33,479 bases of DNA from a virus (taxonomy: Duplodnaviria; Heunggongvirae; Uroviricota; Caudoviricetes), in the IMG/VR virus record IMGVR_UViG_2627854066_000005, positions 1 to 33,479 of that record. The stretch is one strand, 5' to 3'. A program made the translations under genes and the position numbers. Shown here piece after piece: positions 319 to 33,479 of this stretch (the first letter of the stretch is position 1; each line of letters begins with the position of its first letter). Under the pieces are notes generated by a model. That model was not told the origin of the DNA. It made no database searches and saw only the letters and a list, made by a program, of their open reading frames with translations.

Positions 319-477
319 GAATATTTTTTGGTAAGCGTCAAATATGCGCGTTCTGGCTGTGCGTAGCCGGAACCTGTGGGAGCACGATGCCGATAAGTGA
401 AAGGCATCGTGCTATGAAGGAGGATTCTATCGATGTGGTCAATGGAAGACGGTTACCAGAGATAGGGCTTATGCATA

Positions 478-504
478 AAAAAATAAGCCCGTGTAAGGGC
501 GTTT
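478..504. other. Putative P2-type attachment core (attL) next to the 3' end of int
   Basis: aaaaaataagcccgtgtaagggcg resembles the phage P2 att core as I recall it; sits between the flanking ORF and the int stop. No second copy found in the window. Confidence 0.4.
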
Positions 505-3386: not shown

Positions 3387-3662
3387 ATGAGTATCCGTAT
3401 CGAGATAAATCATCAGTATGTAGTTACAAGCGATCGCTACCAGTTCATTTTGCAGGAAAAGAAAGTGGCGACTGCTGGAAAAAATGAAGGTAGCGAATGG
3501 CTTGATACTGTCGGGTATTACCCGACGATTCAAAAACTGATTTCTGGTCTGGTGCTACATGACCTTTTAAATGGCGGTGCTGATAGTTTTGCGGCGTTGG
3601 GTGAGCAGGTCGAGCAGTTGGGACTGCAATGTCAGACCGCGTTTTGTGCTGATGGCCGTTGA
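3387..3662 (+). CDS. Small hypothetical phage protein (P2 orf80-83 region)
   Basis: 91-aa ORF with strong RBS (agaaggag) 8 nt upstream of the ATG. Confidence 0.45.
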   Translation: MSIRIEINHQYVVTSDRYQFILQEKKVATAGKNEGSEWLDTVGYYPTIQKLISGLVLHDLLNGGADSFAALGEQVEQLGLQCQTAFCADGR

Positions 3663-5865
3663 GACTCGGGGGCGTATTGCCCCCTCGCTAGCCCTGCCAA
3701 TATCTAAGCGCACCGGCGATACTTTCGTTGGTGCTTATCCCTGGAATGCTCCCCGCGCTGCCATTGGCCGTGACAGACCCCTTACACGTGCCGAATTCCG
3801 TCAGGTGCAAGGTGTTTTATACCGGATTGACCGCCTGCCTTTCTTTCTTAAGACGTTGTTTACTTCCCGTTATAACTTCATTCGCCGCACAAAGAGCCCG
3901 CTCGGGGCGCTCTATTTCCTGAAAAACACCTTTGAGCGGAAGCTGTTGCCGCGTCTTGAGCGCGTTAACGAGCTGTGCGGGATGAATGAATCTGCGTCGA
4001 TTGGTTTCTTGTCTGAGCATGACGAATATGCGCGCTTGCCTGATATGAATGACAAAGAGCTGAAAAAATTTGCGGCCATAATTGCCGCGCAGCTCTGGCG
4101 TAAATACGAGGAACTCAGCGACGAATGGGCTGAGGCATTCGGCGGTAAAGAGACCCTTTTCACCGATGAGGCGCAGGTGCACATATATGGTCAGGTGGCT
4201 GGTGTTGCACGCGCGTTCAACTTAACCCCGCTCTACTGGAAAAAATACCGTAAGGGTCAGATGACGATCCGCATGGCGTTTTCCGCTATTTCCCGTCTGA
4301 TAAAAGATGATTGGTGGGTTAACCAGCTCAAGGCGCAGCGTATGCGCTGGCGTGAGGCGCTGCTTATCGCTGCCGGTGAAGTCAACAAAGACCGTTCACC
4401 TTACGCCAGCAAAATGGCGATCCGCGAGGTTCACTCGCGCCGGCTGGCTAATCTCGAATACCTGAAATCCTGTGAGCTGGAAAACAAAGTTACCGGCGAA
4501 CGTATCGACCTCATCAGTAAAGTCATGGGGAGTATTTCAAACCCTGAAATACGCCGTATGGAGCTGATGAATACCATTGCCGGAATTGAACGCTATGCGG
4601 CCAGCGTTGGTGATGTGGGAATGTTTATCACGCTGACCACGCCGTCGAAGTATCACCCGACCCGACAGGTCGGCAAAGGTGACAGCAAAACGGTGCAGCT
4701 CAATCACGGCTGGAACGAAACCGCATTCACCCCTAAAAACGGCCAGCGCTATCTGTGCCGAATCTGGAGCCTGATGCGTACCGCTTTCAAAGATAACGAT
4801 TTGGAAGTGTATGGGATGCGCGTTGTCGAGCCGCACCACGACGGCACGCCACACTGGCATATGATGCTTTTTTGCAAACTCGGTCAGCGTAAAGCTATCA
4901 ACGAAATTATGCGTCGTTATGCCCTCAAAGAGGACGGACACGAAAAGGGCGCGGCAAAACAGCGCTTTGAGTCGCGTCACCTTAATCAGGGGGGCGCGGC
5001 GGGTTATATCGCCAAATACATTGCCAAAAATATCGACGGCTACGCGCTTGACGGTCAGCTCGATCACGATACCGGCAAACCTCTGAAAGATACGGCCGCA
5101 GCCGTAACCGCATGGGCGTCTACATGGCGTATCCCTCAGTTTAAACCGATTGGCCTCCCGACAATGGGCGCTTACCGCGAACTGCGTAAGCTGCCGCGCG
5201 GGGTGAGTATCGCCAGCGAGTTTGACGACCGTGTCGAGGCCGTCCGGGCTGCTGCAGATGAGGGGGAATTTGACCTGTACATCAGCGCGCAGGGTGGGGC
5301 AAACATGCCGCGTGATGCTCAGGTGGTCAGGGTCGCCCGTAAGGTGACGGATGAGGTAAACGAATACGAGGAGGATATCGAGAAAGTGGTCGGTATTTAT
5401 GCCCCTCATCTTGGGGCGAGCCGCGTACATGTAACCCGTACAGCGGAATGGCGCATAGTTCCAAAGGTTTTGGCCGTTGAGCCTTTGACCTTAAAAAGCG
5501 GCGCTGCCGCGCCTCGGAGTCCTGTCAATAACTGTGGAAAGCTCACCGACGGTGATACTCCAGTTATGACACCCACACCGTCTGAGCAAGCCGCAGCGGT
5601 GTTAAATCTGATTGAGCGCGGAGTTATCGGATGGAATGAGCCAGACGTCATGAAGGCGCTTAACGGTGCGTTAAGAGCTGGCATCCCTCGCAAAAATCGC
5701 CAGCAAAGAAGCAATGCGCTACTCAAAACGAGTGAGCAAGCTCCATCAGCCAGGATGACAAAACCAGAAAGGGATCGCGTGGCGAAAATTCGTTTCGATT
5801 TGGCTCAGGAGGGCATTACCCCGGAACGGTGGGAGCTCGAAGCGCTGGTGCGTGGGCAACGGTGA
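3652..5865 (+). CDS. A: Rolling-circle replication initiator A (HUH-type endonuclease)
   Basis: About 737-764 aa. Contains HUH-type motif VEPHHDGTPHWHMMLF and paired active-site Tyr motif GYIAKYIAK. Start uncertain: 3652 (MAVETRG) or 3571, the latter giving 764 aa versus 761 for P2 A. Confidence 0.85.
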   Translation: MAVETRGRIAPSLALPISKRTGDTFVGAYPWNAPRAAIGRDRPLTRAEFRQVQGVLYRIDRLPFFLKTLFTSRYNFIRRTKSPLGALYFLKNTFERKLLPRLERVNELCGMNESASIGFLSEHDEYARLPDMNDKELKKFAAIIAAQLWRKYEELSDEWAEAFGGKETLFTDEAQVHIYGQVAGVARAFNLTPLYWKKYRKGQMTIRMAFSAISRLIKDDWWVNQLKAQRMRWREALLIAAGEVNKDRSPYASKMAIREVHSRRLANLEYLKSCELENKVTGERIDLISKVMGSISNPEIRRMELMNTIAGIERYAASVGDVGMFITLTTPSKYHPTRQVGKGDSKTVQLNHGWNETAFTPKNGQRYLCRIWSLMRTAFKDNDLEVYGMRVVEPHHDGTPHWHMMLFCKLGQRKAINEIMRRYALKEDGHEKGAAKQRFESRHLNQGGAAGYIAKYIAKNIDGYALDGQLDHDTGKPLKDTAAAVTAWASTWRIPQFKPIGLPTMGAYRELRKLPRGVSIASEFDDRVEAVRAAADEGEFDLYISAQGGANMPRDAQVVRVARKVTDEVNEYEEDIEKVVGIYAPHLGASRVHVTRTAEWRIVPKVLAVEPLTLKSGAAAPRSPVNNCGKLTDGDTPVMTPTPSEQAAAVLNLIERGVIGWNEPDVMKALNGALRAGIPRKNRQQRSNALLKTSEQAPSARMTKPERDRVAKIRFDLAQEGITPERWELEALVRGQR

Positions 5866-5941
5866 TTTATGGCGATAAAAAATTCAAATACGCGGCTGCT
5901 GATGAGTGGCCGGGATTCTCAATTCAAGAGGAGTGGAAATA

Positions 5942-6406
5942 ATGAGCAAAATCCATGAGTTAAAAATTGCACCTGAGCATTTTAACGCTGTGATATCTCA
6001 GGAAAAACGTGCTGAATTTCGTCTCAATAACCGCGATTATTCTAGCGGTGATATTCTCGGGTTGCATGAATGGGAACCGGTAAACGGATATACCGGGAAA
6101 CGTGTATCAGTGAGGGTGACATACGTTACTGATTTATCTGAATGGGCGGAAAATTATGTGATGCTGAGTTTTCAGTTAATGATGCCAGATGTCAAGTGCG
6201 GTATGTCCCTAATGAACTGGAAAGAGTTAAGCGAGAAGGGGCTTGTTTTCAGAATTAATCACGAAATTCTACACCCGTTAGGGCTGGCTATTGGATTTGA
6301 AACACTTAACGGCGTTTCGGGTGGGGCTTATGTCGCTTGTGATGGTGTCTGGCAATATTCCGACAAGCTGGTCGCAGATGCTAAAAAAAATGGGTGGTTA
6401 AAATGA
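5942..6406 (+). CDS. Hypothetical protein with ASCH/DUF3850-like N-terminal region (cargo, tin/old position)
   Basis: ATG 5942 with RBS aagaggag. N-terminus ELKIAPEHFNAVISQEKRAEFRLNNRDYSSGDILGLHEWEP resembles DUF3850/ASCH (PUA-like) proteins, from memory only. About 42% GC versus about 55% backbone. Confidence 0.4.
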   Translation: MSKIHELKIAPEHFNAVISQEKRAEFRLNNRDYSSGDILGLHEWEPVNGYTGKRVSVRVTYVTDLSEWAENYVMLSFQLMMPDVKCGMSLMNWKELSEKGLVFRINHEILHPLGLAIGFETLNGVSGGAYVACDGVWQYSDKLVADAKKNGWLK

Positions 6407-6627
6407 GTCATATGCGAATGATGCCAGTGCCGCCCGTACATTCAACGCAAAACATTAAGCTGATGGCCGTCGTGCATCGCCTGCAACAAATTATGATTAA
6501 CGAGAATCTGACCCCTGACGAACTGGTCGGGTGTGCCGGTGTCGTCCGGGATAATCACCGCAAATACAGCGATATCAGCAATCCGAAAATTGAGGCGTTT
6601 CGGCCATCAAATATGGCGAAGCCATAG
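6394..6627 (+). CDS. Small hypothetical protein
   Basis: 77-aa ORF overlapping the upstream stop; weak RBS, no motif recognised. Confidence 0.25.
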   Translation: MVKMSHMRMMPVPPVHSTQNIKLMAVVHRLQQIMINENLTPDELVGCAGVVRDNHRKYSDISNPKIEAFRPSNMAKP

Positions 6628-6909
6628 CAAACGCCGCCGGTGCTGAAACTTGTTTTCAGTGCCAGCGGGGTTGACCAACGAGCCCCGCGAGGCGTTAGCC
6701 TGTCCCGTAGAGATCACCCCCAACCGGAACGATTAAAGCAGGTTTTATTATGCCATTTTCCCACAATTTCCCGGTTTTTTAGCCGTGCATGCAACAGGTG
6801 CATTGTTTTGCATGCGTTGGGGATGCCCGTTCTGGCCGTGCGCCGCCAGAGCTAGCGCGGATCCAGAGTGGTCATGCAACTGCATTAAAACCGACCCATA
6901 AAGCGGGCA

Positions 6910-6928
6910 GGCGAGGCGGGGATAGCAT
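6910..6928. other. Putative cos site (19-nt cohesive end region)
   Basis: GGCGAGGCGGGGATAGCAT differs at 2 positions from the P2 cohesive end GGCGAGGCGGGGAAAGCAC as I recall it. Lies in a GC-rich noncoding stretch between the A side and the Q/P packaging genes, as in P2. Confidence 0.5.
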
Positions 6929-7017
6929 TGCGCGCTGAGGGGTTTTAAATTTCATTTTTTTTAGTATTATCAAAAAGAATAATTCAGAATTATCTCAAAA
7001 AAGGCAAGGGGCACAAT

Positions 7018-8349
7018 ATGGTGATTAATGAAGTTAGACGGATAGGTAGTGGCGGTTTTGGTAATGTTGATTTAGTGCAAGATGTCCTTAGCGGAAAGCA
7101 ATTCGCTAGGAAAACATTTTCTATAAATCAAGCTCAACCGCTGCCTCCTGATTTGGCAGAGAATGTAAAAAAAAGATTTATAAGAGAGGCAAACGTACAG
7201 TATAGACTTACGCATAAAAATATTGTACCTGTCCTTTTTAAAGATCTAAATAGTAACCCTCCATCTTTCCTTATGCCAGTAGCAGCATCTAGCCTTGATA
7301 AAGATATTGCGCAAAGTAGAAACTTGAATGGATTATTTTTAAGAGCAATAATGGATATTTTGTCTGGACTCGAAGAATTGCACACGTTGCAAATTTATCA
7401 TCGTGATCTCAAACCACAAAATGTGCTTAGATTTGATTCAAGTGAAGGTCCATATTACGCTATTAGCGACTTTGGCTTGATGTCAGTAAAAGATACTCAA
7501 ATTTCAGCACTAACCCATACAGGTATGAAAATGGGTTCTGATTACTACACCGCACCTGAAATTGTTTCAGATCTTAGAAAAGCTAGTATTGCTTCAGATA
7601 TTTATTCTTTGGGGTGTATACTGCATGACTTTGTAGGCACGGATGAAAGAATTCCTTGTGGTGAAATTAATAATGATTCGAGCGCATATGCGCATATTTT
7701 ACGGGTTTGTACTCGTAGAGATCCTTCAAGAAGATTTCCAAGTGTTGCAGCATTAAGGGATGCAATTCTTAGTATTGATCCTTCTACAGTAATACATCTC
7801 TCTGCTGAGGTTGGAACATATACTACAGCATTAGATAGTGACGCCGGAATTAATGTTGAAACATGGAGGGAAATAATCAATTTCGTAGAGGATAATATTG
7901 GACAAGAAAACTCCAAGGTGATATTTCAGCGTCTAACTTTAAACAGGATTAATGAGATAATCGCTCATGATACCACGCTAGCTTGTCGTCTTGGTGAAGC
8001 ATATGGTCGTTGGGTTGCGGATGGAGTATTTTCATTCGAACAGTGTGATGGGATTTGCACTCGTCTCGAACAATTTTTACAACTTCACGATTTGAACTGT
8101 AAAGCCGAAATTATTATAGCTATGCTTCTTATGGGAACGTCGCATAATCGTTGGTATGTCGAGAGACGCTTCATGAGCGTGGCAGGGCACGACATGACTC
8201 CAGAACTGGCTAAAAGGCTTGCTTTGGAAATGAGCATACTTGAGGGTAGAATGTGTGCAGCGGTGAGTCATCTCCAAAGATCAATTGGTGCCACACCTGA
8301 TATGCTTCATCCTGAACTTTTCGCAATGATACAAAGAGTATGCCATTGA
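7018..8349 (+). CDS. Hanks-type (eukaryotic-like) Ser/Thr protein kinase with about 170-aa C-terminal domain of unknown function
   Basis: Gly-rich loop IGSGGFGNV (7042-7068); Lys in FARKTF; catalytic loop HRDLKPQN (HRD at 7399-7407); DFG (7468-7476); YTAPE. RBS aaggcaagggg upstream; AT-rich promoter-like region 6950-7017. About 35-38% GC. Confidence 0.8.
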   Translation: MVINEVRRIGSGGFGNVDLVQDVLSGKQFARKTFSINQAQPLPPDLAENVKKRFIREANVQYRLTHKNIVPVLFKDLNSNPPSFLMPVAASSLDKDIAQSRNLNGLFLRAIMDILSGLEELHTLQIYHRDLKPQNVLRFDSSEGPYYAISDFGLMSVKDTQISALTHTGMKMGSDYYTAPEIVSDLRKASIASDIYSLGCILHDFVGTDERIPCGEINNDSSAYAHILRVCTRRDPSRRFPSVAALRDAILSIDPSTVIHLSAEVGTYTTALDSDAGINVETWREIINFVEDNIGQENSKVIFQRLTLNRINEIIAHDTTLACRLGEAYGRWVADGVFSFEQCDGICTRLEQFLQLHDLNCKAEIIIAMLLMGTSHNRWYVERRFMSVAGHDMTPELAKRLALEMSILEGRMCAAVSHLQRSIGATPDMLHPELFAMIQRVCH

Positions 8350-9050
8350 TTAATAAATTTGCTTACACATCTCCGGGACCTAGAAGCCACAACCAAGACT
8401 CTATCTTGGTTGAGATTTTACCCAGCGCTGATTTGTTATGTGGCGTTGCGGATGGTGTCGGCGGGAATTTGGGGGGAGAAACAGCCTCTCAATTAGCACT
8501 GGACATTATTGCTGCGGCCATGCGTTCGGATAGTAGCATCTCTCTTCTCGAAGCCATAACCCGAGCTGATGAAGCGATCAAAGATGCTGCTCAGAAAGAT
8601 GGAAAATTGGCTGGAATGGCAAGTACTGTGACTGTAACAAAGCTTATCGGGAATAAATTGATAGGAGCCAATTGTGGAGATTCTCGGACTTATCTATTAA
8701 GAGGAAGTGGCGTCAAACAACTTTCCTATGATCACAGTGAAGTAGCTCGTCTACTACGTGAAGGTAAGCTGACGAAAGAGACTGCAGTTGATTACCCTCG
8801 TAAGAACATTCTTGATAGTGCCCTTGGTGCACACAAGCCTCTACAAGTCCATGAATTTGAATGTAATTTACAGATAGGTGATAGAATAGCTTTGCTATCT
8901 GACGGGGTTTCGTCAGTTGTGAGCAAAAAAGATTTCCGAGATCTTTCAGTGAAATATAATTCGTTAAATGAGTATGGTGCTAGTGTAATAGAGCTTGTTG
9001 AGAGTAGAGAGACTAGGGATAATTATTCATTGATTATTTTTGAAATTTAG
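8340..9050 (+). CDS. PP2C-family Ser/Thr protein phosphatase
   Basis: PP2C motifs GVADGVGG (8451-8465), CGDSRTYLL (GDSR at 8676-8687), LLSDGVS. ATG overlaps the kinase 3' end by 10 nt, suggesting translational coupling. Confidence 0.75.
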   Translation: MPLINKFAYTSPGPRSHNQDSILVEILPSADLLCGVADGVGGNLGGETASQLALDIIAAAMRSDSSISLLEAITRADEAIKDAAQKDGKLAGMASTVTVTKLIGNKLIGANCGDSRTYLLRGSGVKQLSYDHSEVARLLREGKLTKETAVDYPRKNILDSALGAHKPLQVHEFECNLQIGDRIALLSDGVSSVVSKKDFRDLSVKYNSLNEYGASVIELVESRETRDNYSLIIFEI

Positions 9051-9061
9051 TTTTGTAATAT

Positions 9062-9095
9062 AGGTGCGTTATTTAAAATGACGCACCTTTTCTCA
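9062..9095 (+). terminator. Intrinsic terminator after the kinase-phosphatase operon
   Basis: Stem aggtgcgt / acgcacct (8 bp) with 11-nt loop, followed by a T-rich tract. Lies between the convergent phosphatase and Q genes. Confidence 0.5.
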
Positions 9096-9102
9096 TTTTG
9101 TT

Positions 9103-10110
9103 TTAAATAGAATATTTTTCAAATTGTATTACATCTTCTTGAAGCCAGTCGTTAATCTCTTTGAAACGCTCCTGCAATGGCGTCAGCTCGTTACGCACAA
9201 ACACCCGCGCCACCTTCTCAACGTCACCCATTGAGCCGATGTTTTCCGGCTTGCCGCCCATCAGCTGAAACGGCACGCGGTGCGCATCGAGCAGGTCAGC
9301 GGCACTGACCTTTTTGATGTTGAAAAAATCATCCTTCGTGGCGACTTCACTCAATGGCACAATCTTGATCCCGTCTGGCTTTCCGTTGGGCGCGTAGAAA
9401 AACAGGTTCTTAAAATTCCCCAGCCCTTTTGAGTCGCGCATCGCGTTACGGAGCGATTCAACGTCGGTGCTACTCTGTGCCGCGTCGGTGACATACATGA
9501 TATACCCCGCGTGCGCCCCGTTCTGGTAATACTTACGACGAAATAACGTGGCGGATTCATTCAGCCAGGCTGAATTGAGTGCGCTCAGGTATTCCGGCAT
9601 CCCGTAAAGTTCCTGATTGATATCGGGCTCAAGCAGATGACACACCGAGCCGGGCGCGAACGGGTGCGGCTGGGTGTAGCTCGATACGTACCAGTAAACG
9701 CCATCCTCGACACCCCGGCGGGTGTATTTGGCCGGGGAGGTTTCCAGTTTTAATAGCTGGCCGGTGACGCTCATGCGCTTCTCAAGATAGCCGTTGGCAA
9801 AGACCAGATAATCGAGCACAAGGCGGCTGAAATCCTGACGCGACAGCAACGGGTGCGGAATGTAGGTGCTCGCCAGAATGTTACGCTTCACGTAAATCGG
9901 CGAGCTGTGGTGAACGGCGGCGCGCAGGCTTTTTGCCAGTCCCGAGAAATTGACCGGCGGCTCGTACCATTTCCCGTTATTGATGCACTCGACATAGTCG
10001 AGGATGTCGCGGCGATCCAGAACGGGGGACGGCTCACCAAAGGTAAACGCCTCCATTTTTTGCGGTGCGCTGGCGGTCATTGTGGCGGGTTTCTTCTGTC
10101 GTTTTTTCAT
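9103..10110 (-). CDS. Q: Portal (capsid portal protein Q)
   Basis: Start MKKRQKK at 10110 lies immediately after the P stop (TAAGATG coupling); an alternative in-frame start is at 10170. P2 gene order Q-P on the minus strand next to cos. Confidence 0.85.
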   Translation of the reverse strand: MKKRQKKPATMTASAPQKMEAFTFGEPSPVLDRRDILDYVECINNGKWYEPPVNFSGLAKSLRAAVHHSSPIYVKRNILASTYIPHPLLSRQDFSRLVLDYLVFANGYLEKRMSVTGQLLKLETSPAKYTRRGVEDGVYWYVSSYTQPHPFAPGSVCHLLEPDINQELYGMPEYLSALNSAWLNESATLFRRKYYQNGAHAGYIMYVTDAAQSSTDVESLRNAMRDSKGLGNFKNLFFYAPNGKPDGIKIVPLSEVATKDDFFNIKKVSAADLLDAHRVPFQLMGGKPENIGSMGDVEKVARVFVRNELTPLQERFKEINDWLQEDVIQFEKYSI

Positions 10111-10111
10111 C

Positions 10112-11881
10112 TTAGTTAATATCCAGAATTGAGGTTGATTGCATGCCGCTACCGGCGGAAAGTGGCTCATTTAACAGGGCGTGCATGGTCGCCCACGCAA
10201 TATCCGCGTGGCTGGCCTCTTCGCTGCGGCTGGCCTCATAGGTGGCACTGCGCCCGCTGCTGGTCATGGTTTTACGAATCGCCATAAACGACTGCGTGAT
10301 GTCGGTTGCACCGGCGTCATATTCCAGACACCCACGTCGGATGGTGTCTTTCGCTTTCAGCACCATCGCGGTTTTCATTTCCGGCGTGTAGCGAATGGCG
10401 CGGGCTGCCGGAAAGAAGGAGCGCACGAGCTGGTAAACCCCCTGGCCGATGCCGGTTGCATCGATGCCGATATACTCGACGCAATATTTCTCTGTCAGCT
10501 CGCGGATAGCCTCGGCCTGCGTTGCAAAATCCATCCCTTTCCACTGGTGACGCTCAAGGATGCGGAACTTGCCACCGGCAACCAGCGGCGGAGCCAGTAC
10601 CACACAGCCAGCACTGTCGCCGGTGTGTGACGGGTCATAGCCAATCCAGACCGGGCGCCAGTTAAACGGACGGTCAGAGAACGGTGCAAAGTCTTCCCAT
10701 TCTTCCATCGCATCGACCATGCAGCGCTGCAGCTCCTCGAACGGAAATACAGACGCTTTATCGTCGACGAACTCGCACATGAAGAGGTTGCGAAAGTCGT
10801 CGGCGCTGTTTTCCTGTTTCAGCTGATCCAGATTAAACAGCGTACATCCTCCGGCGAGGGCGTCCTCGATGGTGACAATCTGCCGCCACTGTCCGTCCGG
10901 GCATAACACCCCACCGGCGAGCGCCTTGTGACTGATATCGATGTCGACGCGCTCACTCGCGCTGATGCGTCCCCGGTTAAACAGCTCACCTGACCAGAAC
11001 GGATACGCACCGTGTGCCAGCGTTGAGGGTGTTGAAAAGTAGGTGGTGCGCAGGTGGGACTGTGACGCCATCCCCGACGCCACTTTGCGCAGCCTCTGAA
11101 AGTTGGGGATCCAGAAGATTTCATCGACATACAGGTCGCCGTTGTGGCTCTGCGCGGTGTTGGAGTTTGTCCCGAGGAAAATCAGCTCTGCGCCGTTATT
11201 GCCGATGACAATCGGGTCGCCTGACAGGTCGACGTCGACCATGCGTGCAAAGGCGATGATGTACTTTCGGAACACGTAAGCCTGCGTCTTACTGGCGGAT
11301 AAAAATATCTGGTTTTGCCCGGTTTTGAGGGCGCGCAGCAATGACTCGCGGGCAAAGTAAAATGTCGCGCCAATCTGGCGTGATTTGAGGATGTGGCGAA
11401 TACGGTGCGCGATACCGGCCTTGTGCCAGTTGAGCTGATACTCAAAGGACTGGTCGAGGAAAATCTCTTCCAGCTTTTCGATGGCCTCATCGCTGAAAAA
11501 ATTCCGTTTCGGCTTACGGCGATCGCCCTTATTACGGCTGGCAATACTGGGGTTTAAATCCACCTCGTTTCCGGTCTGGCCGTAGCGGTTGATGCGCGCG
11601 AATCGCTCCATCTGGCGCGACAAAAAATCAGCGACCTTGAAGTCATGCGGCGTCAGGTCAGGCTTTGCATACAGCTGAATCAGGCGCGCCTCGAGCGTCG
11701 TTTCCACGCGGTTAAGCGGGGCGGTTTCCTCCCACCCGTCGCGCTGTTTCCAGCTCTGCACGGTCGGGCGCTTGACCTGCAGCGTGTCGGCGATTTGTGG
11801 CACGGAAAATCCCTGCCAGAACAACAGACGCGCCTGTCGTCGCGGGTCATGTAAAAGGGAGAGGTCAGTCGAAATGGTCAT
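10112..11881 (-). CDS. P: Terminase large (ATPase) subunit P
   Basis: 589 aa from MTISTDL..., versus 590 for P2 P; synteny with Q and divergent from O. Confidence 0.85.
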   Translation of the reverse strand: MTISTDLSLLHDPRRQARLLFWQGFSVPQIADTLQVKRPTVQSWKQRDGWEETAPLNRVETTLEARLIQLYAKPDLTPHDFKVADFLSRQMERFARINRYGQTGNEVDLNPSIASRNKGDRRKPKRNFFSDEAIEKLEEIFLDQSFEYQLNWHKAGIAHRIRHILKSRQIGATFYFARESLLRALKTGQNQIFLSASKTQAYVFRKYIIAFARMVDVDLSGDPIVIGNNGAELIFLGTNSNTAQSHNGDLYVDEIFWIPNFQRLRKVASGMASQSHLRTTYFSTPSTLAHGAYPFWSGELFNRGRISASERVDIDISHKALAGGVLCPDGQWRQIVTIEDALAGGCTLFNLDQLKQENSADDFRNLFMCEFVDDKASVFPFEELQRCMVDAMEEWEDFAPFSDRPFNWRPVWIGYDPSHTGDSAGCVVLAPPLVAGGKFRILERHQWKGMDFATQAEAIRELTEKYCVEYIGIDATGIGQGVYQLVRSFFPAARAIRYTPEMKTAMVLKAKDTIRRGCLEYDAGATDITQSFMAIRKTMTSSGRSATYEASRSEEASHADIAWATMHALLNEPLSAGSGMQSTSILDIN

Positions 11882-11942
11882 GGTTGCCTCGTGTCGGTGA
11901 ATACGGGGCAAGGCTAAGGAAATAGCCGGGCATTATCGCTAA

Positions 11943-14032: not shown

Positions 14033-14785
14033 ATGACGAGTCCCGCAGCGCGTCACATGATGCGGGTCTCGGCCTCTGAAACTGCGCGGCGGGCTGCTGC
14101 TCCGCTGCGCAATGCAACTGCCTATGAGCAGATGCTCGTCAAGCTGGCCGCAGACTGTCGCACGTTAAAACAAATCCGTTCCAATGAGCGCAAGGCAGAC
14201 AAAAAGCGTGAGCTGCTACCGTTTTATCTGCCGTGGGTGGGTGGCGTTCTCAGCTCCGGCAAAGGGGCGCAGGATGACATTGTCATGACCGTCATGCTCT
14301 GGCGTCTTGATGCTGATGACATTGCCGGTGCGCTGGAAATCGCCCGCTACGCGATGACGTATGGCCTGACCATGCCGACCGGCGGCCACCGCCGCACAAC
14401 GCACTATCTGCTGGCCGAAGAGGTCGCCCTGTCAGCGCAGCGCCTGCTTGATGCAAAACAGCCTGTCGGGCTGTCGCTCCTGCTCGACACCATCGCACTG
14501 ACCGAACGCGCAGATATGCCCGATATCGTGCGCGCGAAGCTGCACAAAATCACCGGCTACGTGCTGCGTGATGCTGGCAACCTGACTGACGCGCTGGCGC
14601 ACCTGCAGCGAGCGATCCAGTTAGAGCGGGCTATCGGTGTGAAAAAGGATATTGAGCAGCTTGAACGCGCGCTGAAACCCAAACCAGAACCCGCACCCAA
14701 ACAGAATAAACCGCGCCCGCGCCGTGCCGCTAAACCGGCGGCACGGCGCGGGCGTCCCCCGAAAGCGGCAAAAGCCGCAGGTTAA
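14033..14785 (+). CDS. M: Terminase small/endonuclease subunit M
   Basis: 250 aa versus 247 for P2 M; basic Pro/Ala/Lys-rich C-terminal tail; synteny. Confidence 0.8.
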   Translation: MTSPAARHMMRVSASETARRAAAPLRNATAYEQMLVKLAADCRTLKQIRSNERKADKKRELLPFYLPWVGGVLSSGKGAQDDIVMTVMLWRLDADDIAGALEIARYAMTYGLTMPTGGHRRTTHYLLAEEVALSAQRLLDAKQPVGLSLLLDTIALTERADMPDIVRAKLHKITGYVLRDAGNLTDALAHLQRAIQLERAIGVKKDIEQLERALKPKPEPAPKQNKPRPRRAAKPAARRGRPPKAAKAAG

Positions 14786-17856: not shown

Positions 17857-18906
17857 ATGTCTAACGATGATAAAACATTGAATTTATTCCCCATAGATTA
17901 TCCATTTGAGACTTTATGTTCTAGGATGAAGTCCAATCCCATCAAACTAAAACTGAATCCAGACTTTCAAAGAAAGTACAAATGGGATCAGGACGGATGG
18001 CTGCGATCTTCAAAATTCATTGAATCTTGTTTAATGCGTATTCCTCTTCCATCTTGTTACTTTGCAGAAGATGATAGCGGCAATCATATTGTAATTGATG
18101 GTGTTCAGCGATTAACCACAATACAGAAATTTTTTGATGACGAGTTCGCTTTGGAGGGAATGACTACATTTAAAGAGCTTGAAGGGAAAAAGTTTTCTGA
18201 ATTAGGATCTCTACGTTCAGAGTTAGAGTCGACAACAATAAGATGCATTGTTCTAAGAAAAGAAAATCCCAAAAAATTAATAAGAGAGATATTTTCTAGA
18301 CTCAATCAGGGGGCAGTTAAACTTTCTGACCAAGAAATAAGACATGCGTTATATCCGGGAGGGTTTGATGAATTATTAGAAGAGTTAGGTAATATTGATG
18401 CCATTAAAAATTTTGGTTTGGCGGAAACAACTACAGTAAAAAGAGATAGTCGTGAGCCAGACGAACAAGTTTTGCGTTTTTTTGCATTTTATGAAGATAA
18501 CTTTTTTGATTACTTTGATAGCTCCTTGAAAGAATTCTTGGATGATCATATGGAAAAATTTTCAGACTTAAAAGATGATGAACTGAATATTATGAGGGAG
18601 AGATTCAAAACATCATTATCTAAGTGTGAAAAAATATTTGGTGAAGATGTATTTACAAACCCTACAGTTAGGAGAAAACGTAAAGGGTTAGTTCATTATG
18701 ACATTTTAATGCCTACAATTGGCAAGTTAAATGATGATATTGTAAATGAAAAGTCCGAACAAATACGGAATGCTTGGTTTACTCTTTGTTCAAGTGCTGA
18801 GTTCAAAAAAACTTTATCAGGTGGGCTACAGAATAAGAGTTCGGTGATGAAGCGTAGGGCTAGTTGGGTGGCACTTCTTAAGGAAGTTATTGATGGAAAA
18901 TACTGA
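17857..18906 (+). CDS. DUF262 (ParB-like / GmrSD N-terminal-like) domain protein
   Basis: 349 aa; N-terminal region with FQRKYKW and IDGVQRL (the DGQQR-type motif of DUF262); helical C-terminal region, no HNH/DUF1524 seen. About 33% GC; inserted between S and V, which are adjacent in P2. Confidence 0.65.
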   Translation: MSNDDKTLNLFPIDYPFETLCSRMKSNPIKLKLNPDFQRKYKWDQDGWLRSSKFIESCLMRIPLPSCYFAEDDSGNHIVIDGVQRLTTIQKFFDDEFALEGMTTFKELEGKKFSELGSLRSELESTTIRCIVLRKENPKKLIREIFSRLNQGAVKLSDQEIRHALYPGGFDELLEELGNIDAIKNFGLAETTTVKRDSREPDEQVLRFFAFYEDNFFDYFDSSLKEFLDDHMEKFSDLKDDELNIMRERFKTSLSKCEKIFGEDVFTNPTVRRKRKGLVHYDILMPTIGKLNDDIVNEKSEQIRNAWFTLCSSAEFKKTLSGGLQNKSSVMKRRASWVALLKEVIDGKY

Positions 18907-19471
18907 ATACTATGATGGATATCGTTCATTATTTTTATCCTTAAAAGAAATTATTAAGGAGACGGAGCAACAGGCTATCCTTGAGGAAAATGAATTCTTC
19001 AATAAGAACATTAATTTTTTTGTTAAATCGTATCTTATTACACTCTGCACTTATTTAGAGTCGTATTTGACTGAGGTTGCAACATGGCACTGCGATACCA
19101 TCAATCGCAGGCTTAAAGCAGCCTGCTTGCCACACAATTTTTTGCTTTGGCGAGTCAAAAAAGATGTTAAAGATAAGGAGTTGAAATATATAGATGCTGA
19201 TTTAAAGGTTGAGAAAAGTGAGGTGTCGGATAGCCTGTCTGGTAATCCTTACAAGACGATTAAGGCATTTTCTTATTTGGGTGTTAATCTTTTGAATTCG
19301 GCGGAATTTAATGCGAATAAGGATGTTGTGAATGCAGTGGTTGTAAAGAGAAATAACATTATTCATCATAACGACAATGCAAATGATATTAGTCTCACTG
19401 ACGTAAGTGGTTATGTAGATCTGTTTGTATCCTATATGGCCGCGATAGATAATATGGTTTGTGGAAAATAA
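18890..19471 (+). CDS. Hypothetical partner protein, possible HEPN-like (R-x4-H) motif
   Basis: 193 aa; overlaps the upstream gene by 17 nt (same operon); KRNNIIHHND fits the R-x4-H pattern of HEPN RNases, tentative. AT-rich. Confidence 0.45.
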   Translation: MMENTEYYDGYRSLFLSLKEIIKETEQQAILEENEFFNKNINFFVKSYLITLCTYLESYLTEVATWHCDTINRRLKAACLPHNFLLWRVKKDVKDKELKYIDADLKVEKSEVSDSLSGNPYKTIKAFSYLGVNLLNSAEFNANKDVVNAVVVKRNNIIHHNDNANDISLTDVSGYVDLFVSYMAAIDNMVCGK

Positions 19472-29728: not shown

Positions 29729-30888
29729 TAACGGGAATGAACATTCAGACCGGGGCGCGCATTGCCCCTGATTTTATGCTCACGCTCGATGGCGCAGATA
29801 TCTCACAGAATTTCAGCAACCGGCTTATCGGGCTGACCATGACCGACAATCGCGGATTCGAGGCTGATCAGCTTGATATCGAGCTTGATGATTCTGACGG
29901 GCTGGTTGAGCTGCCGCCACGCGGGGCATCGCTGACGCTGTGGCTGGGCTGGCAGGGCTCGGCGCTGATAAACAAAGGGAGTTTCACGGTTGACGAAATC
30001 GAGCACCGGGGCGCGCCTGACAGGCTGACCCTCCGGGGGCGCAGCGCGGATTTTCGCGGGACGCTGAACTCCAGGCGCGAACAGTCATGGCACGACACCA
30101 CGCTCGGGGTGATTGTTGAGGCTATCGCGCAGCGTAACAAACTGACGGCCAGCGTGGCTGATACCCTGAAATCTGTTGCTGTGCCGCATATCGACCAGTC
30201 TCAGGAATCCGACGCCGCGTTTTTGTCCCGACTGGCGGATCGTAACGGGGCAGCGGTTTCGGTCAAAGCCGGGAAATTGTTATTCCTGAAAGCCGGTAGC
30301 GCGATGACGGCCAGTGGCAAGGCCATCCCGCAAATGACCGTCGAACGCGGTGACGGCGACCGCCATCAGTTCGCCATTGCAGACCGTGAGGCTTACACCG
30401 GCGTAACGGCGAAATGGCTGCACACCAGAGACCCGAAACTGCAAAAGCAAAAGGTGAAGCTCAAACGCAAACCCAAAGAGCAGCACCTGCGTGCGCTGCA
30501 GCACCCGAAGGCCGTCAAAACATCGGCAAAGGCTAAAAAGAAAAAGGAGCAGGAAGCGCGGGAAGGTGAGTATATGGCTGGTGAGTCCGACAATGTTCTG
30601 GAACTCACGACCATCTACGCGACAAAGGCGCAGGCCATGCGCGCAGCTCAGGCAAAGTGGGACAGGATACAACGTGGGGTGGCGGAGTTTTCGATTACGC
30701 TCGCCACTGGCCGCGCTGATTTATTTCCTGAAACGCCGGTCGCAGTGAAAGGCTTTAAGCGCGTTATAGACGAACAGGCGTGGATAATCAGCCGTGTGGT
30801 GCACAGCTTTAATGGGAGCGGCTTCACGACGGGCTTAGAGCTTGAGGTTAAGGTTTCTGATGTGGAGTATGAAAGCGAGGAAACTTAA
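29725..30888 (+). CDS. D: Tail protein D
   Basis: 387 aa, same length as P2 D; start overlaps the U stop. Confidence 0.85.
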   Translation: MITGMNIQTGARIAPDFMLTLDGADISQNFSNRLIGLTMTDNRGFEADQLDIELDDSDGLVELPPRGASLTLWLGWQGSALINKGSFTVDEIEHRGAPDRLTLRGRSADFRGTLNSRREQSWHDTTLGVIVEAIAQRNKLTASVADTLKSVAVPHIDQSQESDAAFLSRLADRNGAAVSVKAGKLLFLKAGSAMTASGKAIPQMTVERGDGDRHQFAIADREAYTGVTAKWLHTRDPKLQKQKVKLKRKPKEQHLRALQHPKAVKTSAKAKKKKEQEAREGEYMAGESDNVLELTTIYATKAQAMRAAQAKWDRIQRGVAEFSITLATGRADLFPETPVAVKGFKRVIDEQAWIISRVVHSFNGSGFTTGLELEVKVSDVEYESEET

Positions 30889-31636: not shown

Positions 31637-33479
31637 GTGCGCCGGGCATGGCGCGTAGCGCCGTGACTGGCGCTGTTCTTCAACTGTGGTGGCTGAAGAA
31701 CGACTAAGAGGTGAAAGTCCTCCACACACCCGGTGAGGGGAAGTGTTAGCGGAAGGCAAGGGTGTTCATCGCGAGGTGAAATCTGAAGGAAGCCGGATGC
31801 AAAATGCTGGCCTGACGAACAGGAAGCGGTTAAGGCGGCGCAGCGGGGTAAGGTGGCATACATCACCAAAGCCCGATACTCACACGGAACGCTGTAACGT
31901 AGAGCCGACAGGCATAAGCAGGAAAGTCGCGCGAATTACCCCGGGAGAACTGCCGTCCTGCCAGTGTGCTACCGGCGTCGTAAGGTGCCGGGATGGGGCG
32001 GCAGAAGTCAGCCGACGCCGTAGTAGTGCTGCAAAACCGGCAGCATGAAGGGCCGAACATGATTAACCGTGATTAGGACATCCGAACCCGATGATGATTA
32101 ATGAAGCACAAGCGCAGGCAACTGCGGCCAGCGGCAGAGGAGACGGACGGTATCCGTCAGGGCTGCATGATGGCGCTGAAATCAGCACGGCGGCGGGTGG
32201 GCAAACGAAAGCGGAAGTGCCGCTGACGATGGAAGCGGTGATAACGAGAGAAAACCTGATGCTGGCTTATCAGCGCGTGGTGGAAAACAAAGGCGCGGCG
32301 GGGGTGGATAACCTCAGCGTGGCGGAGTTGAAACCGTGGCTGAAGAAGAACTGGCGCAGTGTCAGGCAGGCATTGATTGACGGAAACTACCAGCCGCGGG
32401 CAATACGCCGGATGGATATCCCGAAGCCGGATGGCGGCGTGAGAACCTTAGGCATCCCGACGGTGGTGGACAGGCTTATCCAGCAGGCGATTGCGCAGCA
32501 GTTAAGCGCCATCGTGGACAAAAGCTTCTCAGACTCCAGCTACGGCTTCCGGCCGGGGCGCAACGCATGGCAGGCGGTGCAACAGGCACAGCGTTACATA
32601 CGGGGCGGCAAACGGTGGGTGGTGGATATGGATCTGGAGAAGTTCATTGACCGGGTGGATCACAGACTCCTGATGACGCGTCTGGCCAGAACGATAAAGG
32701 ACAGGCGGGTGCTGAGACTGATACGCCGCTACCTGAAAGCGGAAATAGTCCGGGACGGGCAAAGGGAGAAACGGCAGGAGGGCATGCCGCAGGGCGGCCC
32801 GCTGTCGCCGTTACTGTCGAACATCCTGCTGGATGAACTGGATAAAGAACTGGAGCGTCGTTGACACAGCTTCTGCCGCTACGCAGACGACTGCAACATC
32901 AACGTAAGCAGCCGGAAAGCGGGCGACCATCTGCTGAAGAACATCAGGGCGTTCGTGGAGAACAAAATGAAACTGAAGGTGAATGAGAAGAAGAGCGCGG
33001 TGGCGCGCCCGTGGGAGCGGAAGTTCCTCGGGTACAGTGTGACATGGCACAAACAGGCGAAGCTGAAAATAGCCCTGACGAGCGTGAACAGGCTGAAGGA
33101 GAAAGTCCGCAGTCTGACCACGGGAAACCGGAGCAAATCAGTGAAAGCGACAATCAATGCCCTGACGCCAGTGCTGCGTGGATGGATAAGCTACTTCAGG
33201 CTGACGGAAGTCAGAGGAGTGCAGGAAGAGCTGGACGGCTGGATCAAACGGAAACTGCGGTGCCTGTTGTGGCGGCAGTGGAAGAGGCCGGGAACCCGGA
33301 CGAAGAACCTGCAAAGAGCGGGGCTGAGTAAGGACAGGGCGATGATCTCAGCGTACAACAACCACGGGCCATGGTGGAACTCAGGGTCAAGCCATATGAA
33401 TCAGGCGATAAAGAATGCGTGGTTCAGCAGGCAGGGTCTGATATCACTGCTGGAACAGCAGAGGCAGTTCCAGTGTTAA
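31637..33479 (+). mobile_element. Group II intron, 5' portion (domains I-IV with intron-encoded protein); 3' end beyond the window
   Basis: 5' GTGCG at 31637; about 590 nt of structured GC-rich RNA-like sequence before the RT ORF; the ORF has the YADD motif and the maturase domain-X motif LRGWISYF. Insertion just after a terminator is typical of class C (IIC) introns. Confidence 0.7.
32229..33479 (+). pseudogene. Group II intron reverse transcriptase/maturase, interrupted by in-frame TGA at 32862-32864
   Basis: ORFs 32091-32864 and 32955-33479 are in the same frame. Reading through the TGA gives ...LDKELERR*HSFCRYADDCNI..., continuous through the RT YADD motif (32880-32891). Likely start MEAVITRENLMLAYQRV at 32229. 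Natural stop TAA at 33477-33479. Confidence 0.7.

What the first reader, a model, noticed from the sequence alone, without database searches (positions are those of the whole stretch)
6640..6960. cos-like site places the kinase operon at the virion-left end, between cos and Q
GGCGAGGCGGGGATAGCAT at 6910-6928 is within two mismatches of the P2 cohesive-end sequence as I recall it, and it lies in a GC-rich noncoding stretch. If this is cos, the prophage carries two separate cargo slots flanking it: the ASCH-like ORFs on the A side and the kinase-phosphatase operon on the Q side. The latter is an unusual place for cargo in P2.
Basis: partly seen in the sequence, partly recalled or inferred. Interest (0 to 1): 0.45.

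Follow-up and report, generated by a model that had tools for sequence, protein, structure and literature searches.

The report
Genuine P2-family cos beside known cargo slot
The sequence is the real DNA-packaging cut site (cos) of an apparently intact P2/186-type prophage, and the kinase-phosphatase operon beside it sits in a cargo slot between cos and the portal gene that has been known since the 1990s and is filled in about 40% of related prophages, so the finding is correct but ordinary.

Summary
Observation confirmed. GGCGAGGCGGGGATAGCAT lies at 6910-6928, with 2 mismatches to P2 and 2 to 186 (0.01 matches expected by chance). It sits inside an intact 55-bp P2/P4/186 cos core (6881-6935). 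The right end of the phage 186 record aligns to window 6909, so 6910 is base 1 of the virion map.

The prophage is E. coli KV7, yegR/yegQ site, 33,142 bp between att cores, with a complete set of P2 late genes.

Homology to P2/186 stops 14-36 nt after the cohesive end. It resumes inside the last 13 codons of the portal gene (~9143). A 2.2-kb low-GC cassette replaces the native ~170-bp interval: Hanks kinase with a helical-repeat C-terminal domain, PP2C phosphatase, and its own terminator.

The claim that this is an unusual place for cargo is not supported for the family:
- 56 of 144 surveyed P2-like loci (39%) carry cargo there, including Olokun, Lamassu, AbiL and Avs5.
- Among loci with the strict P2-type cohesive end the figure is 6 of 40.
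- Precedents are phiCTX ctx, retrons Ec67/Ec86 (Dodd & Egan 1996) and phage Cartapus.
- This exact four-gene arrangement is already listed in Rousset et al. 2022, Table S5.

The A-side "ASCH" gene is a P2 orf91 homologue, not obvious cargo. Low interest.

The parts
477..499 (+). attL core (AAAAAAATAAGCCCGTGTAAGGG). The identical attR copy lies 33,142 bp downstream in the KV7 chromosome, about 140 nt beyond the window end.
   Evidence: prophage between yegR and yegQ
3571..5865 (+). Replication gene A. It bounds the A side of the gpA-gpQ hotspot.
   Evidence: Pfam Phage_GPA, E 3.7e-108; RefSeq 'replication endonuclease'
5906..6627 (+). A-side small genes: a DUF3850/ASCH+DUF7415 protein (P2 orf91 homologue) and a 77-aa ORF. 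They are semi-conserved P2-family accessory genes, not evident foreign cargo.
6628..6909 (+). 186-like noncoding virion-right end. It includes a cluster of TGCAT/ATGCA motifs (6786-6813 and 6874-6885) that is conserved across the family. These are probably accessory terminase-recognition sequence (inferred).
   Evidence: 88% identity to 186 nt 30342-30624; consensus of 79 cos regions; 6 motifs in 110 bp against 0.19 expected
6881..6935 (+). 55-bp cos core shared by P2, P4 and 186: 29 nt left flank, 19-nt cohesive end, then TGCGCGC.
   Evidence: '55-bp core' of Ziermann & Calendar 1990 as quoted in PMC5694545 and PMC9594776
6910..6928 (+). 19-nt cohesive-end sequence. Predicted nicks are at 6909/6910 on the top strand and 6928/6929 on the bottom strand, giving 5' overhangs.
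   Evidence: 186 record annotation of the cut positions
6936..7017 (+). Left junction zone (homology to native post-cos sequence fades between 6942 and about 6964) and AT-rich leader of the kinase operon. The leader travels with the cassette in other genomes.
   Evidence: no strong sigma-70 match found
7018..8349 (+). Hanks-type Ser/Thr kinase with all catalytic motifs present: G-loop at 10, ARK at 30, HRD at 128, DFG at 151, APE at 179. It carries a conserved all-helical ARM/HEAT-like C-terminal domain (residues ~230-443).
8340..9050 (+). PP2C-family Ser/Thr phosphatase, overlapping the kinase gene by 10 nt. The metal-binding motifs ADGVGG, GDSR and SDGV are present.
9062..9088 (+). Terminator hairpin of the cassette (12 bp, -16.1 kcal/mol, z -5.65) followed by a U-rich tract. 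It stands where the native tQ/tW terminator was.
   Evidence: tQ/tW positions in P2 and 186
9103..10170 (-). Portal gene (Q/W homologue; RefSeq start at about 10110). The last 13 codons (9103-9143) are diverged and AT-rich at the DNA level, so the right recombination junction lies inside the gene.
10112..11911 (-). Terminase large (ATPase) subunit, gpP homologue, part of the enzyme that would cut this cos.
   Evidence: Pfam Terminase_6N/6C/Terminase_5
14033..14785 (+). Terminase small/endonuclease subunit, gpM homologue.
   Evidence: RefSeq 'terminase endonuclease subunit'

Best explanation
Window 6881-6935 is the functional cos site of a complete P2/186-type (Peduoviridae) prophage of E. coli KV7.

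How cos works. During lytic growth the phage terminase (gpP at 10112-11911, gpM at 14033-14785) recognises the conserved core and probably the TGCAT repeats up to about 120 nt on the A side. It nicks the top strand at 6909/6910 and the bottom strand at 6928/6929. This gives a linear genome of about 33.1 kb with 19-nt 5' cohesive ends. The prophage map is a circular permutation of the virion map because attP lies elsewhere. Everything to the right of 6910 is therefore the virion-left end.

What sits next to it. The native ~170-bp cos-to-portal interval, including the tQ/tW terminator and the last 13 portal codons, has been swapped. The replacement is a 2.2-kb low-GC cassette with its own leader, a kinase gene, a PP2C gene and a terminator. 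It is transcribed away from cos and convergent with the portal gene. The swap was tolerated because the Q side of cos needs only about 7 conserved nucleotides.

Likely function of the cassette. It is most likely a lysogenic-conversion, anti-phage module in which the phosphatase holds a potentially toxic kinase in check.

Shown versus inferred. Shown: sequence identity of cos, synteny, junctions, occupancy of the slot in relatives, and the domain content and mobility of the cassette. Inferred: actual cleavage, the role of the TGCAT repeats, and the defence function.
For: cos identity:
- The 19-mer has 2 mismatches to P2 and to 186, with a chance expectation of 0.01.
- The full 55-bp P2/P4/186 core is intact.
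- The 186 right terminus aligns to window 6909.
- The order A - small genes - cos - portal - terminase is the same as in P2 and 186.

Integrity of the prophage:
- All P2 late genes are annotated as intact.
- The att cores are 33,142 bp apart, against 33,593 bp for P2.

Tolerance of cargo on the Q side:
- Conservation across 79 cos regions ends at +7. It extends 37 nt on the A side, plus a second block at -111 to -95.
- 56 of 144 relatives have 0.4-4.4 kb between cos and the portal stop.
- Functional phages phiCTX (cosL-ctx-Q) and Cartapus (cos-DUF4145-portal) share the architecture.

Cassette:
- Junctions are at 6942-6964 and about 9143.
- GC is 0.33-0.44.
- The kinase-PP2C pair is conserved as a unit next to Hachiman genes, an integrase, or transposases in other genomes.
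- A diverged copy shows the same cos-kinase-PP2C-portal order.
- The kinase domain hits the PADLOC models PD-T4-6, mad6 and Stk2.
- Other Q-side slots hold Olokun, Lamassu, AbiL, Avs5 and HicAB.
- A kinase-kinase-PP2C module in P2, P4 and Pf prophages acts as a toxin-antitoxin-like defence (PMC11341870).
Against: There are no experimental data on packaging from this prophage. The native portal-operon terminator is lost, and the replacement hairpin has a U-tract only on the kinase strand. No convincing sigma-70 promoter was found in the 82-nt leader. A group II intron sits near attR, and the genome is at the upper end of P2-family sizes. For the defence role, the PADLOC hits cover only the generic kinase domain, the PP2C has no PADLOC hit, and nothing has been tested. 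The cassette is rare: it is present in 1 of 5,426 complete E. coli genomes.
Confidence: 0.88

Rival explanations
1. The cos core is a sequence relic in a prophage that can no longer package. The replacement next to cos, or other lesions, has made it cryptic, so the site marks where cos was but is not cut.
For: There is no functional evidence. The native tQ/tW terminator and the last 13 portal codons were replaced. A group II intron has been inserted in the prophage. Copies of the same cassette in chromosomal islands do carry decayed cos relics.
Against: The relic copies differ from the window's core at 7 and 15 of its 55 positions (L089 and L215). The window copy agrees with every strongly conserved position of the family consensus. 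All morphogenetic, terminase and lysis genes are annotated as intact. The replaced portal tail still encodes a family-typical C-terminus (LQEDVIQFEKYSI against LGMEVIRFKDYSI). Viable phages have the same layout.
Confidence: 0.08
2. The 19-mer is a chance resemblance to the P2 cohesive end and the true packaging site is elsewhere.
For: Two mismatches to the remembered P2 sequence.
Against: 0.01 matches are expected by chance and it is the only match in the window. The 36 flanking conserved nucleotides, the 283-nt alignment to the 186 right end, and the synteny all agree.
Confidence: 0.01
3. The kinase-PP2C pair is not primarily an anti-phage defence. It is instead a regulator of host or prophage physiology, for example phosphorylation of a nucleoid-silencing protein to control lysogeny, as shown for one function of the KKP module.
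For: KKP kinases phosphorylate MvaU and control Pf prophage production (PMC11341870). The kinase has a protein-binding type helical-repeat domain. The PP2C has no defence-specific model hit.
Against: The pair sits beside Hachiman and ABC-3C-type conflict genes in other genomes. It occupies a slot that elsewhere carries recognised defence systems. It shows the patchy, cross-phylum distribution typical of defence genes. The two roles are not mutually exclusive.
Confidence: 0.25

Closest known systems
cos sites of phages 186, P2 and satellite P4 (19-nt 5' cohesive ends; 55-bp shared core, Ziermann & Calendar 1990)
   Same: The 19-mer is the same apart from three polymorphic positions. The 29-nt left flank and the TGCGCGC right flank are the same. 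The position between the A-side accessory region and the portal gene is the same. The 186 right end is 88% identical over 283 nt.
   Different: The sequence from 14-36 nt after the cohesive end onward is unrelated to the P2/186 intergenic region. The tQ/tW terminator is missing.
phiCTX ctx locus (cosL - ctx - portal Q; Nakayama et al. 1999)
   Same: The architecture is identical: a cargo gene with its own promoter and terminator lies immediately after cosL, is transcribed away from cos, and is convergent with the portal gene of a functional P2-like phage.
   Different: The cargo is a pore-forming cytotoxin in a Pseudomonas phage with 21-nt ends, not a kinase-phosphatase pair.
Retrons Ec67 and Ec86 in 186-related prophages (Dodd & Egan 1996, Virology 219:115)
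   Same: Foreign DNA replaces the segment between cos and the portal-operon terminator of a 186-related E. coli prophage (title and description quoted in PMC7826664, PMC6868368 and PMC5694545).
   Different: Here the replacement also removes the terminator and the last 13 portal codons, and the cargo is not a retron. I could not read the original paper or compare junctions base by base.
P2 gpA-gpQ defence hotspot (Rousset et al. 2022; Vassallo et al. 2022; Moura de Sousa et al. 2026)
   Same: This locus is an instance of that hotspot. The exact protein set WP_029392163 + WP_029392162 + WP_029392161 + WP_029392160 is listed in Rousset's supplementary table for two other E. coli contigs.
   Different: Those catalogues treat everything between A and Q as one arrangement. 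cos actually splits it into an A-side and a Q-side unit. The Q-side unit is positionally equivalent to the P4 hotspot, which also starts right after cos+7.
KKP kinase-kinase-phosphatase module of Pf, P2 and P4 prophages (Guo et al. 2024); Stk2; PD-T4-6
   Same: A Hanks kinase is paired with a PP2C phosphatase carried by a temperate phage. The plausible logic is toxin (kinase) and antitoxin (phosphatase).
   Different: There is one kinase, not two, and no CSD or FHA domain. The gene order is kinase then phosphatase. The C-terminal domain is an ARM/HEAT-like helical repeat.

Membership tests
P2-family cos site | 19-nt cohesive-end sequence GGCG(A/T)GGCGGGGA(A/T)AGCA(C/T) | tested here: met
   6910-6928 matches, and differs from P2 and 186 only at the three positions that vary across 144 loci
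P2-family cos site | 55-bp core shared by P2 and P4 (29 nt left flank + 19 + TGCGCGC) | tested here: met
   6881-6935 aligned without gaps to P2, P4 and 186. All positions that are invariant in the four sequences are kept, as are the family-wide consensus positions
P2-family cos site | Position between the accessory region downstream of gene A and the portal/terminase genes, with cognate terminase genes present | tested here: met
   A at 3571-5865, portal at 9103-10170(-), gpP at 10112-11911(-), gpM at 14033-14785. Same order as P2 and 186
P2-family cos site | Cleavage by terminase to give 19-nt 5' overhangs and packaging of the DNA | not testable with these tools
   Needs terminus mapping of virion DNA or a cos-plasmid transduction assay
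cosL-portal cargo slot of P2-like phages | Foreign, compositionally distinct DNA between the cos core and the portal gene, variable among close relatives | tested here: met
   2,174 bp here against 167-176 bp in P2 and 186. GC is 0.33-0.44 against 0.5-0.58 in the backbone. There is no homology in 50,697 phage records beyond 6937. The slot is occupied in 56 of 144 relatives
cosL-portal cargo slot of P2-like phages | Cargo is a lysogenic-conversion or defence function | tested here: inconclusive
   The kinase domain hits PD-T4-6, mad6 and Stk2 models, but the PP2C has no PADLOC hit. The cassette neighbours Hachiman and ABC-3C genes elsewhere. There is no functional test
KKP (kinase-kinase-phosphatase) module | Phosphatase followed by two kinases, one with a cold-shock domain and one with an FHA domain | tested here: not met
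   There is a single kinase gene followed by a PP2C gene. Pfam finds only Pkinase in the kinase. The C-terminal domain is predicted to be an all-helical repeat
KKP (kinase-kinase-phosphatase) module | PP2C phosphatase neutralises kinase toxicity; a phage protein inhibits the phosphatase | not testable with these tools
   Requires expression and infection experiments
PD-T4-6 / Stk2 single-kinase defences | Full-length similarity to the defence kinase, not only to the catalytic domain | tested here: not met
   All PADLOC alignments cover only residues ~6-250 of 443

The most novel reading that the evidence does not exclude
The Hanks kinase (with a conserved ARM/HEAT-like C-terminal sensor domain) plus PP2C pair may be an uncharacterised two-gene, phosphorylation-based abortive-infection or toxin-antitoxin-like defence system. 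On this reading it is a long-term resident of the cos-adjacent slot of P2-like phages. It has been seeded from there, still carrying a decaying cos relic, into chromosomal defence islands.
Probability: 0.45. Interest if true: 0.4.

Novelty: already known. Interest (0 to 1): 0.15.

Why it matters
There is little new biology here. The cos site is an orthodox member of the P2/186/P4 family. The cos-to-portal slot is a documented hot spot, and this very gene arrangement is already in a published hotspot catalogue.

Three points have practical value:
- Locating cos shows that the catalogued "gpA-gpQ" arrangement is really two units on opposite virion ends. That matters when deciding which genes form one defence system.
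- The survey gives a number for how often the Q side is used: about 39% family-wide and about 15% for the strict P2-type end. It also shows that only about 7 nt to the right of the cohesive end are conserved, which is useful for designing P2 cosmids or engineering cargo.
- The kinase-PP2C pair is an untested candidate defence module.

Tried and rejected
- att sites. A repeat search inside the window found no att pair because attR lies about 140 nt beyond the window end. This was solved from the KV7 record.
- Promoter. A sigma-70 scan found nothing convincing in the 6936-7017 leader, so the promoter remains unassigned.
- Hairpin in the cos core. The terminator-like hairpin on the minus strand inside the core (6894-6908) was considered as a structural element. 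It was rejected because its left arm varies freely among 79 loci without compensating changes, while the right arm AAGCGGGC is invariant.
- Exchange with P4 through the shared cos. The P4 hotspot and the P2 Q-side slot both start at cos+7. However, no P4 proteins flank any copy of the cassette, and Moura de Sousa et al. 2026 report almost no P2-P4 exchange. This idea is not supported.
- The same cassette in other P2-like loci. tblastn of the kinase and the PP2C against 160 surveyed loci found none.
- KKP membership was rejected.
- Rfam found nothing near cos.
- Literature. Odegrip et al. 2006 is not held, and the originals of Ziermann & Calendar 1990 and Dodd & Egan 1996 could not be read. They are cited only through papers that quote them.
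- Packaging direction, and which DNA end enters the cell first, was left undetermined.

Full report
THE OBSERVATION

GGCGAGGCGGGGATAGCAT is at 6910-6928. The P2 record starts with GGCGAGGCGGGGAAAGCAC and the 186 record with GGCGTGGCGGGGAAAGCAT. The window therefore differs from each at two positions. It is the only match in the window at up to 3 mismatches, against 0.01 expected from shuffles.

BLAST against 50,697 phage records aligns window 6628-6909 to the last 283 nt of phage 186 at 88% identity. That record ends exactly opposite window 6909. In the 186 record, nt 1-19 are annotated as the cohesive end, "top strand cut at 5' end and bottom strand cut at 3' end". So 6910 corresponds to base 1 of the virion map.

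THE COS CORE

An ungapped comparison of the circularised P2, P4 and 186 junctions with the window shows the stretch shared by P2 and its satellite P4. It comprises 29 nt to the left (TGCATTAAAACCG...AAGCGGGC[A/G]), the 19-mer, and [T/C]GCGCGC to the right, which totals 55 bp. This matches the "55-bp core" attributed to Ziermann & Calendar 1990 in PMC5694545 and PMC9594776. The window keeps it intact at 6881-6935.

In a consensus of 79 cos regions, conservation stops 7 nt to the right of the cohesive end. To the left it runs about 37 nt, and there is a second conserved block at -111 to -95. Both left blocks are built of TGCAT/ATGCA motifs. The window has 6 such motifs in 110 bp against 0.19 expected. 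I read these as accessory terminase-recognition sequence. That reading is an inference.

THE ELEMENT

The window is 100% identical over 6880-9110 to E. coli KV7 (NZ_LT795502.1). RefSeq annotation shows a complete P2-type prophage between yegR and yegQ. In order it has integrase, repressor, cox, A, then portal, both terminase subunits, scaffold, capsid, lysis genes, tail genes, D, and an ogr-like regulator.

A 23-bp att core at 477-499 is repeated 33,142 bp downstream. The packaged genome would therefore be about 33.1 kb, against 33,593 bp for P2 and 30,624 bp for 186.

WHAT LIES BETWEEN COS AND THE PORTAL GENE

In P2 and 186 the portal stop codon is 167 and 176 nt from the cohesive end, with terminator tQ/tW in between. 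Here the distance is 2,174 nt.

- Homology to other P2-like phages ends at about 6937-6942. In some E. coli prophages a gapped resemblance continues to about 6960.
- Homology resumes at about 9143, which is 13 codons inside the portal gene.
- The replaced portal tail still encodes a family-typical C-terminus, but with AT-rich codons.
- GC falls from 0.5-0.58 to 0.33-0.44.

The insert carries four features:
- An AT-rich leader.
- A 443-aa Hanks-type kinase with all catalytic motifs.
- An overlapping 236-aa PP2C phosphatase resembling Stp1 and PstP.
- A strong hairpin terminator at 9062-9088.

IS THE POSITION UNUSUAL?

I measured the cos-to-portal distance in two independent samples.

Sample 1 was 80 species-representative genomic loci found with the portal protein. 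cos was located in 76 of them.
- 45 loci have 149-210 nt (empty).
- 31 loci (41%) have 380-3,962 nt.

Sample 2 was 80 IMG/VR loci found with the cos core pattern.
- 43 are empty.
- 25 are occupied (37% of the 68 determinable loci).
- 12 are undeterminable.

With the strict P2-type end (…AAAGCAC), 6 of 40 loci are occupied.

The occupied intervals are low in GC. In 22 of 31 loci their ORFs are all oriented like the kinase operon. They encode Olokun, Lamassu, AbiL, Avs5/SIR2, HicAB, putAbiC and PADLOC candidate systems.

Functional phages show the same layout:
- phiCTX has cosL (1-21), ctx with its own promoter and terminators (281-1329), then portal Q on the opposite strand.
- E. coli phage Cartapus has a DUF4145 gene between its annotated cos and the portal gene.

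The literature says the same:
[quoted passage not shown] - Rousset et al. 2022 define the P2 defence hotspot as everything between gpA and gpQ. Their supplementary table lists exactly this arrangement, DUF3850/ASCH + hypothetical + Pkinase + PP2C, with the same four protein accessions as KV7, in two other E. coli contigs.

The position is therefore not unusual for the family, although P2 itself and most close P2 relatives have the slot empty.

THE A SIDE

The "ASCH-like" gene (DUF3850 + DUF7415) corresponds to P2 orf91. That gene is annotated as a DUF3850 protein immediately after gene A. The 77-aa ORF has A-side homologues in at least 12 surveyed loci. Neither hits PADLOC. Only 1,044 nt separate gene A from cos, and the last 282 nt of that are the 186-like noncoding end. 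In this prophage the obvious foreign cargo is on the Q side only.

THE CASSETTE ELSEWHERE

Full-length homologues at 47-89% identity are spread across Proteobacteria and Bacteroidota. The kinase-PP2C pair is kept together in several contexts:
- Next to Hachiman genes in Klebsiella.
- Next to an integrase in Morganella.
- Next to transposases in a metagenomic contig.

One diverged copy (72% kinase identity) keeps the whole order, cos - kinase - PP2C - portal 3' fragment, before being cut by an IS element. The cassette has therefore lived in this slot for a long time.

A 93%-identical copy lies in a chromosomal island with DUF2971, DUF2326 and SMEK_N genes near fimH. It is still preceded by a decayed cos core, with 15 of 55 positions changed. 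This fits the report that near-identical P2 defence genes turn up in cryptic chromosomal locations (PMC13586616).

The cassette is rare. It is present in 1 of 5,426 complete E. coli genomes and in none of the 160 surveyed loci.

LIKELY MECHANISM

For cos, this is standard P2-family biology, based on established knowledge plus the annotations. Terminase binds the core and its A-side flank. It makes two nicks 19 nt apart. The ends re-anneal after injection.

For the cargo, the closest functional analogue is the KKP module, in which PP2C restrains toxic kinases and a phage protein releases them (PMC11341870). This cassette fails the KKP definition: it has one kinase, no CSD or FHA domain, and the reverse gene order. 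I therefore say it may work like KKP, not that it is KKP.

VERDICT

The "unusual slot" reading is not supported. The locus is already catalogued. Interest is low.

Noticed in passing
window 17857-19471: A DUF262 protein (PADLOC NsnA, E 6.6e-80; also PD-T4-2_A) and an overlapping HEPN-domain protein sit between the virion-morphogenesis gene and baseplate gene V. This is the position of orf30 in P2, so the prophage has another cargo slot that holds a probable defence pair.
   Followed up: partly
window 31765-33479 (continues past the window end): A group II intron lies inside the prophage between the ogr-like end and attR. Rfam gives group-II-D1D4-3 (135.9 bits) and group-II-D1D4-1 (70.5 bits). 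The RT/maturase gene is annotated as a pseudogene with an internal stop.
   Followed up: partly
window 6786-6813 and 6874-6885: A cluster of six TGCAT/ATGCA motifs lies on the A side of cos (0.19 expected in 110 bp). It is conserved at the same offsets in the consensus of 79 P2-like cos regions. The motifs may be terminase (gpM) binding sites.
   Followed up: partly
L215 5860-8059 (also L216, L217): A 93%-identical copy of the leader-kinase-PP2C cassette lies in a chromosomal island with DUF2971, DUF2326 and SMEK_N genes near fimH. It is still preceded by a decayed cos core (15 of 55 positions changed; 19-mer GACGAAACGGCGATAGCAT).
   Followed up: partly
L089 5695-8005 (also L088): A diverged copy (kinase 72% identical) keeps the order cos (GGCGTGGCGGCGATAGCAT) - kinase - PP2C - portal 3' fragment. 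A transposase gene then interrupts it. This is a degraded P2-like prophage with the same cargo in the same slot.
   Followed up: partly
window 9103-9143: The last 13 codons of the portal gene are AT-rich and unrelated at the DNA level to the closest relatives, yet they encode a similar peptide. The right-hand recombination junction therefore lies inside the gene, and the donor was probably another P2-like phage of lower GC.
   Followed up: partly
Rousset et al. 2022 supplementary table (file 6) versus window 5906-9050: The published hotspot catalogue lists the two A-side genes and the two Q-side genes as one four-gene arrangement, although cos separates them onto opposite ends of the virion DNA. 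Catalogues of the gpA-gpQ hotspot may merge unrelated units in other loci too.
   Followed up: no
P4 genome L085 1-2540 versus window 6929-9100: The P4 hotspot (gop, beta, cII) begins right after cos+7 on the same side as the P2-family Q-side slot. The two are positionally equivalent, while P2 old/tin lie on the other side of cos.
   Followed up: partly
window versus NZ_LT795502.1: The offset between window and RefSeq coordinates differs by 1 nt in different parts of the window (for example at yegR, kinase and gpM). This suggests single-base indels relative to the KV7 record outside 6880-9110.
   Followed up: no
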